IMG/VR virus record: IMGVR_UViG_3300018430_000021
Location: 192,001 to 256,000 of that record
Length of the DNA stretch: 64,000 nucleotides
DNA from: a virus
Taxonomy: Duplodnaviria > Caudoviricetes
Strand: one strand, 5' to 3'
Below the pieces are notes generated by a model that searched no databases, was not told where the DNA came from, and saw only the letters and a program-made list of their open reading frames with translations. Made by a program: the position numbers and the translations under genes. Shown piece by piece: positions 21,710-38,017 of this stretch. Numbering within the stretch: position 1 is the stretch's first letter; the number at the start of each line of letters is the position of its first letter.

Positions 21710-21741
21710 AATATAGAAAAAGAGTTGACTTTTGTCAACCC
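21710..21741 (-). terminator. tRNA-array terminator doubling as early promoter
   Basis: GGGTTGAC-AAAA-GTCAACTC-TTTTT-C-TATATT immediately 3' of the last tRNA. Confidence 0.75.
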
Positions 21742-21747
21742 TTATAG

Positions 21748-21829
21748 CGGAAGATGAGTGACTCGAACACCCAAGCCATGACGGCGGCAACGTTCGAAAT
21801 TGCTGGCTTACCAATTAGCCTAATCTTCC
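21748..21829 (-). tRNA. tRNA-Ser(CGA)
   Basis: Cloverleaf GGAAGAT/ATCTTCC, loop TT-CGA-AC, long V-arm, G73. Confidence 0.93.
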
Positions 21830-21834
21830 ATTAG

Positions 21835-21926
21835 AAGAGGTGGTAGGATTCGAACCCACGGCCCGGGATGATTACCGGATCACTGGAGTTCAAATCCAGC
21901 GCCATAAACCGCTCGGCCACACCTCC
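21835..21926 (-). tRNA. tRNA-Ser(TGA)
   Basis: GGAGGTG/CACCTCT, loop TT-TGA-AC, long V-arm, U73. Confidence 0.92.
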
Positions 21927-21935
21927 GAAATTTAG

Positions 21936-22021
21936 CTGAGGATGAAAGACTCGAACTTTCAAGCAGATTACTCCACGGCGGCCTTCCAAGCCACTCCCTT
22001 ACCAATTAGGGTTAATCCTCA
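21936..22021 (-). tRNA. tRNA-Ser(GGA)
   Basis: TGAGGAT/ATCCTCA, loop TT-GGA-AG, long V-arm, G73. Confidence 0.92.
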
Positions 22022-22025
22022 AAAT

Positions 22026-22184
22026 GAATACATGCAATGTTTTATACTGACGAGACTCGAACTCGCTTCATACGAATTGTAATTGGCATTTGCAAGAGTA
22101 TCTACCAATAAACGTACCCTTTCCTGATACTTTCGGACGCACGTTCTCTCCTACCTTGATCCAATATAGAGCACGCACATATTC
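22026..22184 (-). ncRNA. tRNA-like structured RNA without a clear anticodon
   Basis: Outer stem GAATATGTGC/GCATGTATTC; acceptor-like TATATTG/CAGTATA stacked on T-arm GCGAG-TTCGAGT-CTCGT. Confidence 0.6.
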
Positions 22185-22188
22185 TTAG

Positions 22189-22265
22189 TCGGCAACATAG
22201 GACTTGAACCTACATGTAACCATTTACTCTTTCTACGCCTTATCAGAGCGAGGAGATAGATGCCG
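22189..22265 (-). tRNA. non-canonical tRNA-Ile(GAT), copy 1
   Basis: Acceptor CGGCATC/GTTGCCG, loop CT-GAT-AA, normal T-arm, no D-arm in the usual place. Confidence 0.75.
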
Positions 22266-22276
22266 ATAATATTTAG

Positions 22277-22353
22277 TCGGTATCATAGGAATTGAACCTA
22301 CATGCAACCAATTACCCTTTCGACGCCTTATCAGAGCGAGGGGATAGATACCG
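22277..22353 (-). tRNA. non-canonical tRNA-Ile(GAT), copy 2
   Basis: Acceptor CGGTATC/GATACCG, loop CT-GAT-AA, compensatory changes versus copy 1. Confidence 0.75.
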
Positions 22354-22420
22354 ATAGATATTGACATTTTTCAGTGATCCAGTTATTGGCTTAGATATGT
22401 CCAATGTCAATAATTTTTAG

Positions 22421-22494
22421 TCCCGGAGGTTGGGCTCGAACCAACGACCTTTTGATTATGATTCAAACGCTCTAACCAGCTGAGCTACTCCGGG
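22421..22494 (-). tRNA. tRNA-Met/Ile2(CAT)
   Basis: CCCGGAG/CTCCGGG, loop AT-CAT-AA, A73. Confidence 0.92.
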
Positions 22495-22498
22495 AAAA

Positions 22499-22558
22499 TA
22501 GCGAGAAGTATATATTACGGATTTAAAGTCCGTTTTTATATAGGAACTTCTTTTGCTA
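22499..22558 (-). ncRNA. mini-RNA carrying an anticodon-like arm with TTA (ochre)
   Basis: Rod ending in ACGGA-CTTTAAA-TCCGT; terminal helix shared with 22571-22655. Confidence 0.55.
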
Positions 22559-22570
22559 TTAAACTTTTTA

Positions 22571-22655
22571 TAGCGGGATGTAATCGCCATACGGCTTCGG
22601 ATTTGAACCGATAAGGCATGTGAGCCTATTACCAAAATAGGAACATCCTATGCTA
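22571..22655 (-). ncRNA. mini-RNA with D-like and T-like arms, no anticodon
   Basis: CCTATT-TTGGT-AATAGG and TCGG-TTCAAAT-CCGA hairpins inside the shared terminal helix. Confidence 0.55.
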
Positions 22656-22660
22656 TGTAG

Positions 22661-22750
22661 AGCTATCTGCAGGATTCGAACCTGCGACGGGGATTTTATC
22701 CACAGCGGAGTTGCAGTCCGCTACCTTCGACCGCTCGGTTACAAGACAGC
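22661..22750 (-). tRNA. tRNA-Cys(GCA) with long variable arm
   Basis: GCTGTCT/AGATAGC, loop CT-GCA-AC, U73. Confidence 0.88.
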
Positions 22751-22761
22751 TTAATTTTAAA

Positions 22762-22884
22762 TTCCACCGCGTGCTTTTACCGAAGAGCCCGCGAAAACTT
22801 CAGTGGCCTACCACCTTGTTGTTTCATACTAAACACGACCGCTGTTTTAAGGCCGCAGCCTTTTTCGCACAGCGTCACGGCGAA
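22762..22884 (-). ncRNA. GC-rich rod-like structured RNA
   Basis: Nested stems TTCGCCGTG/CGCGGTGGA, GCGAAAA/TTTTCGC, GGCCT/AGGCC, TGTTT/AAACA. Confidence 0.5.
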
Positions 22885-22893
22885 CTATTTTCG

Positions 22894-22980
22894 TGCTAGC
22901 TAAGGGAGTCGAACCCCTGTTGTTAACTCGTAAGAGACGTGATCTACAGTCACGCGCAATCGCCACTCTGCCAAACTAGC
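22894..22980 (-). tRNA. tRNA-Tyr(GTA)
   Basis: GCTAGTT/AGCTAGC, loop CT-GTA-GA, long V-arm, A73. Confidence 0.92.
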
Positions 22981-22987
22981 ATTTTAG

Positions 22988-23072
22988 TGACAGCGGTAGG
23001 ACTCGAACCTACGGAAGCTCGTTAGAGCGGGAGGGTTACAGCCTCCAGGAATTGCCGCTATCCGACACTGCC
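22988..23072 (-). tRNA. tRNA-Tyr(GTA)
   Basis: GGCAGTG/CGCTGTC, loop CT-GTA-AC, long V-arm, A73. Confidence 0.92.
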
Positions 23073-35760: not shown

Positions 35761-36447
35761 ATGAGTGAAGTGAGAGAAGAATACACTGCAGAAAATTATC
35801 CAAGTTTTGGCAAGAAGTATAATAACGAGAAGGCAATCATCTCGCTGACTTCTTGGCGTGCAAGAATCAACACGGTATCAAAGACGCTGTTCAGTCTATT
35901 GAAGCAGTGTCCTGGTTTTCATATCGTCTTGGTATTGAGCGAAGAAGAATTTCCGAAAATGATGGATGAATTGCCTGAGAACTTGAAAGTATTTGCTGAC
36001 AATGAACTTATTGAAATCTTGTGGGTGTATAAGAACTATAAGTCATTTAAGAAGGTACTTTTTACGATGGATAAGTACCGTGATGTTCCTATCATTTCAG
36101 CGGATGATGATTGTAATTATGTATGTAATTATGCTGAAGAATTATATCAAACTTATTTACATTATCCTAATAAATGTATTGCTTATAGAAAATCAAAATT
36201 TTCATTTTGTTTATGTGGCCCAGCTTCACTATATACGCCGTTTTTATTTGAAAAATTTATTTTAGAATTCAAAAAATTAAAATTAACAAATTATCAAGAT
36301 GACGGTTTTTTTGCAAATATATTAAAAGAATTAAATGAAAAACCTATTGCATTACACAATAAGTTTCCTTGTAATTTTCATGATGAAATTAAACCTTTAA
36401 ATGGGTCTTTATATAATAAAGAGTGGAAAAATTCACAAATGTATTAA
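35761..36447 (+). CDS. GT-A glycosyltransferase-like protein
   Basis: IISLTSW..RI, PIISADDD, DDGFF; paralog of 38658-39332. Confidence 0.75.
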   Translation: MSEVREEYTAENYPSFGKKYNNEKAIISLTSWRARINTVSKTLFSLLKQCPGFHIVLVLSEEEFPKMMDELPENLKVFADNELIEILWVYKNYKSFKKVLFTMDKYRDVPIISADDDCNYVCNYAEELYQTYLHYPNKCIAYRKSKFSFCLCGPASLYTPFLFEKFILEFKKLKLTNYQDDGFFANILKELNEKPIALHNKFPCNFHDEIKPLNGSLYNKEWKNSQMY

Positions 36448-37178
36448 ATACCAAATAATTCAGTAATTTGTGATTTATTTAATTTACTTTTTAAATTACT
36501 CCACTGTGTTTTATTAGAATATGTTAAATGGTCATTTGTTCCTGTTTGATTATATATAAACATTCTATTAAATGAATTAATTATTATATTTTCATTTTGT
36601 AAATTAAATTCTTCTTTTAATAATTGTACTATTTTTGTATGATTGTATTTATATGGATTTATTTGTAATTTATTCCAATTTATAAATAAACTAATCATAA
36701 TTGATGTAGAACCTATCTTTCCGTAGGATGCATTAAATTCATATAGTTCATATTTTTTATTTATATCTTGTGTAAAACCTTTTTCAAAACCAATATAAAA
36801 TAAATCTGTATTATAATTAATATTTTGTTTAATAATAGATACACAATCATTTCTTATACAATCATCATGGTCTATTCGACTTAATATTATTTTTTCTTTA
36901 TTTAATTTTGATATATATTTTTCTAAATCTATAAAATTTATTATTTCTACATCAAATTTACATAATTTTTTTAACTCTAATATTTTATTTAATAAAAAAT
37001 TAGAATTTTCATGTTTTAATAAAACTAACGTAAAATTTTTATCTGTTTGATTATTTAATGAAGGTATTAAAAAATTAATCATATTTTTATAACCGTCATT
37101 TAATAAATTTTCATCAAAAATGTTTTTACTCAATTTTATACAATAAAACCTAACTAAAATTAAATGTTTTATTTCCAT
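36444..37178 (-). CDS. putative rhamnosyltransferase-like glycosyltransferase
   Basis: LIPSLNNQTDKNF, ILSRIDHDD; very AT-rich. Confidence 0.65.
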   Translation of the reverse strand: MEIKHLILVRFYCIKLSKNIFDENLLNDGYKNMINFLIPSLNNQTDKNFTLVLLKHENSNFLLNKILELKKLCKFDVEIINFIDLEKYISKLNKEKIILSRIDHDDCIRNDCVSIIKQNINYNTDLFYIGFEKGFTQDINKKYELYEFNASYGKIGSTSIMISLFINWNKLQINPYKYNHTKIVQLLKEEFNLQNENIIINSFNRMFIYNQTGTNDHLTYSNKTQWSNLKSKLNKSQITELFGI

Positions 37179-38017
37179 AATTTTAATAATCCCTCAAATG
37201 TTTTAAAAAATCTACTATATTTGTAAATTGTTTTATATATTTTTGGTTTATTTTTATTAAATGTTTTATTTGCGGCAGATTTTCTTTCACGACATTTCAT
37301 AATCCATTCAATATTTGATTTATATTGAAAATGTGCAATAAATAAATCATCACATGCACATGGTGGATTTATCCAATCATCATATATTTTTTTACCATTT
37401 ATTAAATAACTTCCCACATTATTATTTGTACAATTATATGTTGGATTATGCCCGCCATTATGCGGCATTCCCCAATACCACGTTGCCGTTGTTTTTACAA
37501 ATGTTTTTACCCAACTATTATCTTGCCGCCATATAGGATATAATTGCTTACATACATAATCTGACCATCCTGTAGCATTTTCAATAAGTGATTTTGTTCG
37601 TTTCTCTGTATATTCTAATGGAAACATGTTTCGCCAGCCAATACTAAATTTTTTAATATCTGGCCATTTATCTTGTAATGTCAAAATCATTTCATTAACA
37701 TTATTATGAAATTTATCACCAATATATAAAAACTCGTCATCATCAATAGGTAAAACCCACCATGCGGAACTTTTATTGTTGATATACTTATTATATAATG
37801 TATATTGGTTCGGCCAACCAGTTATAAGTTCATATGTAACTCTATCACCATAAGAGTCACAAACACTTTTAATATCTACCCAACTTTCATTATCAAAAAT
37901 ATGACAACAATCAAAACCAATAATGTCTAAATGCCAATGTAACCAATCTTTAAAATCTTGAAGATTATAAGATTTAGTTAATAAAACTACTTCTGATAAT
38001 TTATTTTTGTTCACCAT
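37169..38017 (-). CDS. GT92/GT2-like glycosyltransferase
   Basis: WLHWH..IGFD..HIFDNES, WVLPIDDDEFL, IAHFQYKS. Confidence 0.75.
   Translation of the reverse strand: MVNKNKLSEVVLLTKSYNLQDFKDWLHWHLDIIGFDCCHIFDNESWVDIKSVCDSYGDRVTYELITGWPNQYTLYNKYINNKSSAWWVLPIDDDEFLYIGDKFHNNVNEMILTLQDKWPDIKKFSIGWRNMFPLEYTEKRTKSLIENATGWSDYVCKQLYPIWRQDNSWVKTFVKTTATWYWGMPHNGGHNPTYNCTNNNVGSYLINGKKIYDDWINPPCACDDLFIAHFQYKSNIEWIMKCRERKSAANKTFNKNKPKIYKTIYKYSRFFKTFEGLLKLWK

What the first reader, a model, noticed from the sequence alone, without database searches (positions are those of the whole stretch)
22499..22655. Adjacent sibling mini-RNAs sharing a terminal helix, one with an anticodon arm and one with D- and T-like arms
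Seen: RNA A is TAGCAA-AAGAAGT-TCCTAT...T-ACTTCTC-GCTA and RNA B is TAGCAT-AGGATGT-TCCTAT...T-ACATCCC-GCTA. The 7-bp helix shows two compensatory swaps (A:T to G:C, A:T to T:A), a conserved A-C end mismatch, a discriminator-like G and the CTA trailer used by the tRNAs. A carries only an anticodon arm; B carries a TTGGT-loop hairpin and a TTCAAAT T-loop. Inference: a family of tRNA-part mimics on a common protein-binding scaffold (decoys for tRNA-cutting or tRNA-sensing defence proteins), or a two-piece tRNA-like complex.
Basis: partly seen in the sequence, partly recalled or inferred. Interest (0 to 1): 0.7.

Follow-up and report, generated by a model that had tools for sequence, protein, structure and literature searches.

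The report
Phage handle RNAs displaying tRNA parts
The two small RNAs are real members of a widespread, uncatalogued family in which one conserved folded "handle" carries different pieces of tRNA. In other phages and bacteria the handle sits beside an unstudied protein gene, often next to the RNA-repair ligase RtcB, which points to an undescribed RNA-protein particle resembling Ro60 with its Y RNAs.

Summary
RNA A (window 22497-22560, minus strand) and RNA B (22570-22656, minus strand) share a two-helix scaffold around an invariant GUUCCUAU. They are 2 of 11 copies in this 291-kb giant-phage record.

- **Family:** a covariance model built without B finds B at 36.6 bits. The same handle occurs in many phages and bacteria, and both helices covary strongly.
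- **Partner gene:** handles lie in tandem directly upstream of one conserved gene of 576-671 aa. This held in 10 of 11 phage loci, 42 of 44 bacterial loci and the cultured cyanophage S-CRM01. The protein has a helical N-terminal part and a TerD-like C-terminal domain, and no Pfam, NCBIfam or PADLOC family.
- **RNA-repair link:** in Flavobacteriales chromosomes RtcB lies immediately upstream of the handle array.
- **This phage:** its incomplete record lacks the gene, but two complete close relatives carry both it and RtcB.
- **Cargo:** A displays an anticodon-arm look-alike. B displays D-like and T-like arms without an anticodon loop. Relatives carry the same cargo types.

The "G discriminator plus CUA trailer" is the 3' strand of a covarying outer helix. 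I found no support for an A-B two-piece complex. The decoy role is untested. This scan had already flagged the same module elsewhere in this genome and in other genomes.

The parts
22497..22560 (-). RNA A: complete handle-cargo module. Outer helix 22560-22555 with 22502-22497; AAA bulge 22554-22552; inner helix 22551-22546 with 22509-22504; UCCUAU 22545-22540; bulged C 22503.
   Evidence: R1 hit of 58.8 bits; parse; MFE fold with z -4.2.
22517..22533 (-). Cargo of A: anticodon-arm look-alike with stem ACGGA/UCCGU and 7-nt loop CUUUAAA (pattern Y-U-NNN-A-A).
   Evidence: Related modules carry the same design with loops CUGCAAA, CUUGAAA and UUGGUAA.
22570..22656 (-). RNA B: complete handle-cargo module. 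Outer helix 22656-22652 with 22574-22570; AUA bulge 22651-22649; inner helix 22648-22643 with 22581-22576; UCCUAU 22642-22637; bulged C 22575.
   Evidence: R1 hit of 36.6 bits, E 7e-8; B was not in the training alignment; parse.
22625..22641 (-). Cargo of B: D-arm-like hairpin (CCUAUU / AAUAGG, loop UUGGU) that uses five bases of the handle's UCCUAU.
   Evidence: Read. This pairing is not kept in B-like relatives.
22597..22611 (-). Cargo of B: T-arm-like hairpin (UCGG / CCGA) with the canonical T-loop UUCAAAU.
   Evidence: B-like modules of relatives keep a T-arm with the same loop.
21747..23072 (-). The surrounding tRNA operon: Tyr, Tyr, unknown RNA, Cys, B, A, Met, two aberrant tRNA-like genes, unknown segment, Ser x3. 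A and B lie inside this transcription unit.
   Evidence: ARAGORN and Rfam. Promoter-like and terminator-like sites occur only at the flanks.

Best explanation
A and B are two small non-coding RNAs of a modular 'handle plus cargo' family. The handle is: an outer helix, a 3-nt A-rich bulge opposite a single C, a 6-bp helix, then single-stranded UCCUAU. It is probably the docking site for a conserved protein of about 580-670 aa with a helical N-terminal part and a TerD-like C-terminal domain. The variable cargo between the two handle strands displays tRNA parts. A displays an anticodon stem-loop. B displays the D/T 'elbow' of a tRNA body without an anticodon loop. The particle would work like Ro60 with its tRNA-mimicking Y RNA YrlA: the protein holds the RNA, and the tRNA-shaped cargo engages factors that recognise tRNA. 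In a phage that carries about 46 tRNA genes, the likeliest targets are enzymes that damage, inspect or repair tRNA: host anticodon nucleases (bait or decoy) and/or the RtcB ligase. Shown: the family, its covarying structure, the cargo types and the gene association. Inferred: protein binding, excision as discrete RNAs, and the tRNA-damage role.
For: (1) Family and structure. There are 11 copies in this genome. In alignment A2, 99.7% of cells are paired and 10 of 11 pairs show double-sided changes; covariation is 0.77 against 0.26 for shuffles and at most 0.18 for slid partners. An independent bacterial set, A4, gives 98.6% paired and covariation 0.73. B is found by a model trained without it.
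(2) Gene association. Two to five handles lie within 420 nt upstream of the same gene in 10 of 11 IMG/VR phage loci. R1 gives 79 hits, all on the gene's strand; nearly all lie directly upstream of the gene, covering 42 of 44 bacterial loci, and four lie just downstream of it in Fibrobacter MAG loci. In cultured phage S-CRM01, 5-6 handles lie upstream and one downstream of g174, inside its tRNA cluster.
(3) This lineage has the gene. Two complete relatives (415,750 and 424,163 bp; capsid protein 91-92% identical) encode it at E 1e-102. One has a clear handle just upstream, 52.5 bits; the other has a weak match there, 20.2 bits, E 0.016. Both also encode RtcB.
(4) RNA-repair context. In Flavobacteriales the order is WYL regulator, RtcB, handle array, partner gene, with RlaP nearby. 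RtcB is present in 21 of 78 loci and RlaP in 15. This matches the position of rsr-yrlBA next to rtcBA in Salmonella (PMC4201824, PMC7790460).
(5) Cargo is built as tRNA mimics, not as tRNAs. Whole tRNA bodies carry a GCAA tetraloop in place of the anticodon loop, and their stems covary between relatives. One permuted body has its acceptor end closed by a loop. Anticodon-arm cargos in relatives keep a 7-nt YU-NNN-AA loop while the stem varies.
(6) As in Y RNAs, the 5' strand of the handle is far more conserved than the 3' strand (bioRxiv 10.1101/312249).
Against: The window's own 291-kb record has no homologue of the partner gene or of RtcB. Their presence in the missing ~30% is inferred from relatives. 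No binding, transcript ends or stability were measured. The partner has no recognisable RNA-binding domain. Its only clear structural match is TerD (Z 9.1); Ro60 aligns only at Z 5.1, within the noise for helical proteins. The RtcB link is confined to one bacterial order and may reflect shared ancestry. The handles upstream of the gene could be a cis-acting leader, not separate RNAs. A's 'anticodon' UUA matches no standard tRNA. Cargo arms resemble real tRNA arms at 14-15 of 17 positions against a background mean of 12.9, so mimicry of a specific tRNA is only suggestive.
Confidence: 0.6

Rival explanations
1. The handle is an RNA-processing signal, not a docking site. A nuclease (the partner protein or one it recruits) cuts at the handle, and RtcB joins the ends. 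That would splice handles out of the three handle-interrupted tRNAs. It would release or circularise the cargo of linear modules, as happens with permuted tRNA genes of Cyanidioschyzon (own knowledge). A and B would then be precursors whose cargo is excised.
For: RtcB adjoins the handle arrays in Flavobacteriales and is encoded by both complete relatives. The handle occurs circularly permuted inside the anticodon region of three tRNAs here and of tRNAs next to the partner gene elsewhere. Permuted tRNA bodies occur as cargo.
Against: The geometry is not bulge-helix-bulge: a 3-nt/1-nt internal loop and a 6-bp helix, not two 3-nt bulges 4 bp apart. The partner shows no nuclease fold or family. 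Whole-tRNA cargos have a conserved GCAA tetraloop in place of an anticodon loop, or a capped acceptor end, so no processing could yield decoding tRNAs. Most cargos near the gene are short, AU-rich and unstructured.
Confidence: 0.18
2. A and B are miniature tRNAs, as the first reader drew them. RNase P and a 3' nuclease trim the 7-position helix into an acceptor stem with an A/C first pair and G73, and CCA is added. A would be an armless tRNA with anticodon UUA, an ochre reader.
For: The 3' side reads G-CUA, like the N73-CUA ends of the array's tRNA genes. A's loop has U33 and purine-37. Seven modules of this phage lineage share the AUAGC/GCUAU outer helix.
Against: The outer helix covaries across the family with many other sequences, so CUA is not a conserved feature. 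Neither ARAGORN nor the tRNA model sees A or B, even at E up to 10. Long ORFs read normally under table 11, so no ochre reader is needed. Orthologous positions in relatives carry other 'anticodons' (GCA, UGA) on the same handle. Most family members have no tRNA-like cargo at all.
Confidence: 0.05
3. The handles are cis-acting regulatory or structural elements with no role in trans. Examples would be an autoregulatory leader of the partner gene, or spacers that help fold and process polycistronic tRNA transcripts. In that case the tRNA-like cargos are leftovers of tRNA gene decay and recombination.
For: Handles lie in the 5' leader of the partner gene in nearly all loci. A and B lie inside a tRNA operon. 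A's orthologous slot in relatives holds a different cargo.
Against: Handles also occur far from the gene in several separate tRNA arrays. Cargo designs recur in distant hosts: T-arm, D-loop-like UUGGAAA, and GNRA- or UUCG-capped stems. Cargo stems covary while key loops are kept. None of this is expected from decay.
Confidence: 0.1

Closest known systems
Ro60 (Rsr) with Y RNAs, especially the tRNA-mimicking YrlA (Rfam RF02553; Chen et al. 2014, PMC4201824; bioRxiv 10.1101/312249)
   Same: The RNA is modular: a stem formed by its two ends carries a conserved, mostly 5'-strand motif, and the far end is a tRNA-like domain. Several different RNAs accompany each protein gene. The genes lie next to the RtcB RNA-repair genes. 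The system is present in both bacteria and large phages.
   Different: There is no sequence or model match: no RF02553 hit at A or B at E up to 10. The handle motif is different. The partner has no TROVE or vWA domain; it has a TerD-like domain instead. The cargo range is wider: an anticodon arm alone, an elbow alone, permuted bodies, or almost nothing.
Stable RNAs 'species 1' and 'species 2' (rnaC, rnaD) of the phage T4 tRNA gene cluster (own knowledge, not checked here)
   Same: They are small stable non-tRNA RNAs encoded among phage tRNA genes and co-transcribed with them. Their function is unknown.
'Enigmatic' introns of Lak megaphage tRNAs (Devoto et al. 2019, PMC6784885)
   Same: Conserved short insertions occur in the tRNA genes of huge gut phages. 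In this genome three tRNAs carry the same handle, permuted, in the anticodon region.
   Different: A and B are free-standing modules, not insertions. Whether the Lak insertions contain this handle was not tested.
Armless mitochondrial tRNAs of nematodes (own knowledge)
   Same: A resembles them: one closing helix plus an anticodon arm, with no D or T arm.
   Different: In A the closing helix continues into a conserved outer helix and carries the UCCUAU motif. There is no evidence of CCA addition or aminoacylation.

Membership tests
   A and B both carry it. GUUCC is invariant and the next three bases nearly so (18 U 52/52, 19 A 51/52, 20 U 51/52) in 52 bacterial copies.
   A has AAA/C and a 6-bp outer helix. 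B has AUA/C and a 5-bp outer helix.
   A scores 58.8 bits (it was in the training set). B scores 36.6 bits, E 7e-8 (it was not in the training set).
   It is absent from the 291-kb record, which is about 70% complete. It is present in both complete close relatives.
YrlA / Y RNA (RF02553) | Match to the Rfam covariance model | tested here: not met
   No hit at A or B at E up to 10. The only weak hits (E 0.6 and 9.1) lie elsewhere in the array.
YrlA / Y RNA (RF02553) | Encoded beside a Ro60/TROVE gene | tested here: not met
   There is no TROVE match in the record at E up to 1. The associated protein family has no TROVE domain. Structural alignment to Ro60 1yvp gives only Z 5.1.
YrlA / Y RNA (RF02553) | Modular build: terminal stem with a protein site plus a tRNA-like effector domain | tested here: met
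   By architecture only; this is analogy, not kinship.
tRNA (RF00005) | Cloverleaf recognised by ARAGORN or the Rfam tRNA model | tested here: not met
   Neither tool reports A or B (at E up to 10).
Bulge-helix-bulge splicing substrates (archaeal-type introns, permuted or split tRNA genes) | Two 3-nt bulges on opposite strands separated by a 4-bp helix | tested here: not met
   The handle has a 3-nt/1-nt internal loop and a 6-bp helix.

The most novel reading that the evidence does not exclude
The handle RNAs and the helical/TerD-like protein form an undescribed ribonucleoprotein that arose independently of Ro60/Y RNA and works with RtcB in surveillance of tRNA damage. The giant phage spreads a panel of such RNAs through its tRNA operons, each showing a different tRNA surface (anticodon arm in A, elbow in B, whole bodies elsewhere). 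They would bait or titrate host tRNA-cleaving defence nucleases and hand damaged tRNAs to repair.
Probability: 0.35. Interest if true: 0.85.

Novelty: new variant of a known kind. Interest (0 to 1): 0.72.

Why it matters
The handle is not in Rfam 15. Its partner protein has at least 1,880 relatives but no Pfam, NCBIfam or PADLOC family and no informative name (two of the 120 listed relatives are labelled only 'hypothetical protein').

If the two form a particle, bacteria and phages would have a second, independently built system of the Y-RNA type next to RNA-repair genes. That would give a concrete way to study how giant phages protect or police their own large tRNA sets against tRNA-cutting host defences. 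It would also explain many unannotated 'gaps' and oversized 'tRNAs with introns' in phage tRNA clusters.

Cultured systems exist for testing: Synechococcus phage S-CRM01 and isolates of Chryseobacterium, Flavobacterium and Tenacibaculum.

Tried and rejected
- **Neighbour gene as a route to relatives:** the 317-aa ORF downstream of the array gave no relatives in viral contigs.
Only L026, L028 and L035 were true modules.
- **Exact 19-mer scan of A's 5' strand:** besides true modules it also hit about a dozen IMG/VR loci with near-identical downstream sequence and no 3' handle partner, apparently a conserved coding region. Motif-only matches are therefore unreliable.
- **Protein families:** TROVE and TerD Pfam models found nothing in the record. 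PHROGs and Pfam were uninformative for most neighbouring ORFs.
- **Partner protein structure:** Foldseek whole-chain matches to clostridial neurotoxin entries had TM about 0.08 and are spurious. The Ro60 alignment at Z 5.1 is too weak to use.
- **A-B trans complex:** there is no energetic gain from cofolding.
- **Cargo arms as copies of particular tRNAs:** identity of 14-15 of 17 is barely above the background of 12.9, so I dropped this as a claim.
- **A's hairpin as a terminator:** it matches the consensus only on the plus strand, where no gene runs into it.
- **Literature:** Burroughs and Aravind 2016 (RNA repair systems) could not be read because it is not held. I cannot exclude that the protein family is mentioned there.

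Full report
**What is there**

The window is part of a 291,102-bp IMG/VR virus record, about 70% complete, with 42-46 tRNA genes in several minus-strand arrays. The finding lies inside one array: Tyr, Tyr, an unknown 142-nt RNA, Cys, B, A, Met, two aberrant tRNA-like genes, an unknown segment, then three Ser. Promoter-like and terminator-like sites occur only at the flanks. A and B are therefore internal to a tRNA operon.

A folds into a long rod ending in a 5-bp hairpin with loop CUUUAAA (z -4.2). B contains a UUGGU-loop hairpin and a T-arm-like hairpin with loop UUCAAAU. Neither ARAGORN nor any Rfam family, tRNA and YrlA included, matches A or B even at E up to 10.

**A and B are members of a larger family**

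Printing the gaps of all arrays showed GTTCCTAT recurring. It occurs 12 times on the minus strand of the genome, 10 of them in tRNA arrays. A structure-aware scan found 7 linear and 4 circularly permuted copies of one scaffold, all in tRNA arrays.

The scaffold is:
- an outer helix ending in GC;
- a 3-nt bulge (AAA, AUA or ACA);
- a 6-bp helix ending in G-U;
- single-stranded UCCUAU;
- the cargo;
- the 3' strand of the 6-bp helix;
- a single C;
- the 3' strand of the outer helix.

In three oversized tRNAs the same scaffold is inserted, permuted, in the anticodon region, with the outer helix capped by a small loop. One linear copy encloses a whole tRNA body whose anticodon loop is a GCAA tetraloop.

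I saw this before consulting earlier notes. The notes then showed that the scan had already flagged the module in this genome and in others.

**Structure is under selection**

On 27 short-cargo copies from this and 12 other phages (A2), 99.7% of cells pair and 10 of 11 pairs show double-sided changes. The covariation score is 0.77, against 0.26 for shuffles and at most 0.18 for slid partners. These copies were picked by a script that required pairing. As a check, model R1 was run on bacterial loci fetched by protein similarity. The 52 hits (A4) give 98.6% pairing and covariation 0.73. A model-fitted alignment also leans towards its structure.

GUUCCUAU, the A-rich bulge and the lone C are nearly invariant, while the 3' strand varies. 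R1 was trained without B and finds B at 36.6 bits.

Its sequence differs freely among copies, although seven modules of this phage lineage share AUAGC/GCUAU.

**A conserved gene travels with the handle**

In contig L028, three handles stand directly before a 576-aa ORF. The same holds in L035.

| Set searched | Result |
|---|---|
| 11 IMG/VR phage loci with upstream sequence | 10 have 2-5 handles within 420 nt upstream, some with T-arm, permuted-tRNA or tRNA-insertion cargo |
| Bacterial genomes | 304 relatives of the protein |
| 44 bacterial loci searched with R1 | 79 hits, all on the gene's strand; nearly all directly upstream of the gene (42 of 44 loci), four just downstream of it in Fibrobacter MAG loci |
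| Cultured Synechococcus phage S-CRM01 | the homologue g174 lies inside the tRNA cluster, with 5-6 unannotated handles upstream and one downstream |

The protein has at least 1,880 relatives, none with an informative name, and no Pfam, NCBIfam or PADLOC family. A confident model (pLDDT 84) shows a helical N-terminal part and a C-terminal TerD-like sandwich (Z 9.1 and 8.4). Ro60 appears only at Z 5.1, which is uninformative.

**Link to RNA repair**

In Chryseobacterium and Flavobacterium chromosomes the order is: a divergent WYL regulator, RtcB, the handle array, the partner gene, then RlaP nearby. RtcB adjoins the handles in 21 of 78 bacterial loci, all Flavobacteriales, and RlaP is nearby in 15. 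This mirrors the rsr-yrlBA-rtcBA arrangement of Salmonella (PMC4201824, PMC7790460). Ro60-type proteins with a tRNA-like partner are regarded as an RNA-repair platform in jumbo phages (PMC7824862).

**This phage's lineage**

The record itself lacks the partner gene and RtcB. Two complete relatives (415,750 and 424,163 bp, terminal repeats, capsid protein 91-92% identical) encode both. One has a clear handle just upstream of the partner gene; the other has only a weak match there, 20.2 bits. In one of them RtcB lies about 1 kb beyond the syntenic array. The genes are therefore probably in the missing part of this genome. This is an inference.

**Cargo of A and B compared with relatives**

The syntenic slot in both relatives holds one module. 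Its cargo is a mini D-like hairpin plus an arm with loop CUUGAAA. Other modules with the same handle helix carry:
- arms with loop CUGCAAA on two different stems;
- an arm with loop UUGGUAA;
- GNRA-capped hairpins;
- B-like cargos with a D-loop-like stretch, a UUCG- or UUUG-capped stem in the anticodon-arm position, and a T-arm with loop UUCAAAU.

So A-type cargo (anticodon arm, 7-nt Y-U-NNN-A-A loop) and B-type cargo (tRNA body without an anticodon loop) both recur. The three 'anticodon' bases differ between copies, and A's UUA matches no standard tRNA. Likeness of these arms to particular tRNAs is 14-15 of 17 against a background of 12.9, which is only suggestive.

A and B gain nothing by pairing with each other.

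**Reading**

The best-supported model is a Y-RNA-like particle: the handle docks the partner protein and the cargo presents tRNA surfaces. Three designs argue for mimicry over tRNA precursors: tetraloop-capped anticodon stems, capped acceptor ends and isolated arms.

What the particle does is open. The RtcB context and the phage's investment in tRNAs make tRNA damage the most likely theme, through bait for anticodon nucleases or delivery to repair. The main rival is that the handle is a cleavage and ligation signal used with RtcB. It is disfavoured by the non-BHB geometry, the absence of a nuclease fold in the partner, and cargos that could never become decoding tRNAs. It is not excluded.

Noticed in passing
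window 22751-22892 (-): A multi-hairpin RNA of about 125-140 nt lies between the second tRNA-Tyr and tRNA-Cys. It is conserved in both complete relatives, with 6 pairs changed on both sides. It matches no Rfam family.
   Followed up: partly
window 22190-22268 and 22275-22357 (-): Two sibling tRNA-like genes have good acceptor stems and T-arms but aberrant D and anticodon regions. Both contain the shared core CUCGCUCUGAUAAGGCGU. One scores 25 bits on the tRNA model, below the cut-off.
   Followed up: no
window 22040-22185 (-): An unassigned segment ends in a T-arm-like hairpin. A weak YrlA (RF02553) match at E 0.6 covers 21996-22089.
   Followed up: no
window 21747-23072 and other arrays of the genome: Most tRNA genes of this phage are followed by N73-CUA(A) instead of CCA. 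This may be a shared 3' processing signal.
   Followed up: no
window 22660-22750 (-): tRNA-Cys(GCA) is 91 nt long with a long variable arm, which is unusual for tRNA-Cys. It scores only 36.5 bits with acceptor-stem mismatches. A 91%-identical copy sits in a different array in relative G001.
   Followed up: no
G000:C1 272636-272755 (-), outside the window; L212:686-801 and L225:1854-1973 in relatives: A handle encloses a complete tRNA body whose anticodon loop is a GCAA tetraloop. The tetraloop is kept in both relatives while its stem covaries.
   Followed up: partly
L348 3788-3934 (Synechococcus phage S-CRM01, gene g173c): An annotated 48-aa minus-strand ORF lies on top of the handle RNAs found by R1 and is probably a mis-call.
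   Followed up: partly
L327 4687-4796 (Chryseobacterium sp. MMS23-Vi53 chromosome): A 110-nt match to the tRNA model (49.8 bits) lies between RtcB and the handle array, so bacteria too have an oversized tRNA-like gene in this operon.
   Followed up: no
window 21720-21743 (-) and after other arrays: A recurrent hairpin, GGGTTGAC-loop-GTCAACCC, has its 5' arm containing the -35 hexamer of the next promoter. It doubles as a terminator-like stem.
   Followed up: no
window 36001-38000: A 2-kb island has 23% G+C against about 37% in the surrounding sequence.
   Followed up: no
L268, L269, L286, L290 (Fibrobacter MAG contigs): The closest cellular-bin copies of the partner gene (50% identity) are in Fibrobacter MAGs, with handles both upstream and downstream. 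They may be phage contigs binned with the host, which would hint at Fibrobacter as host.
   Followed up: no
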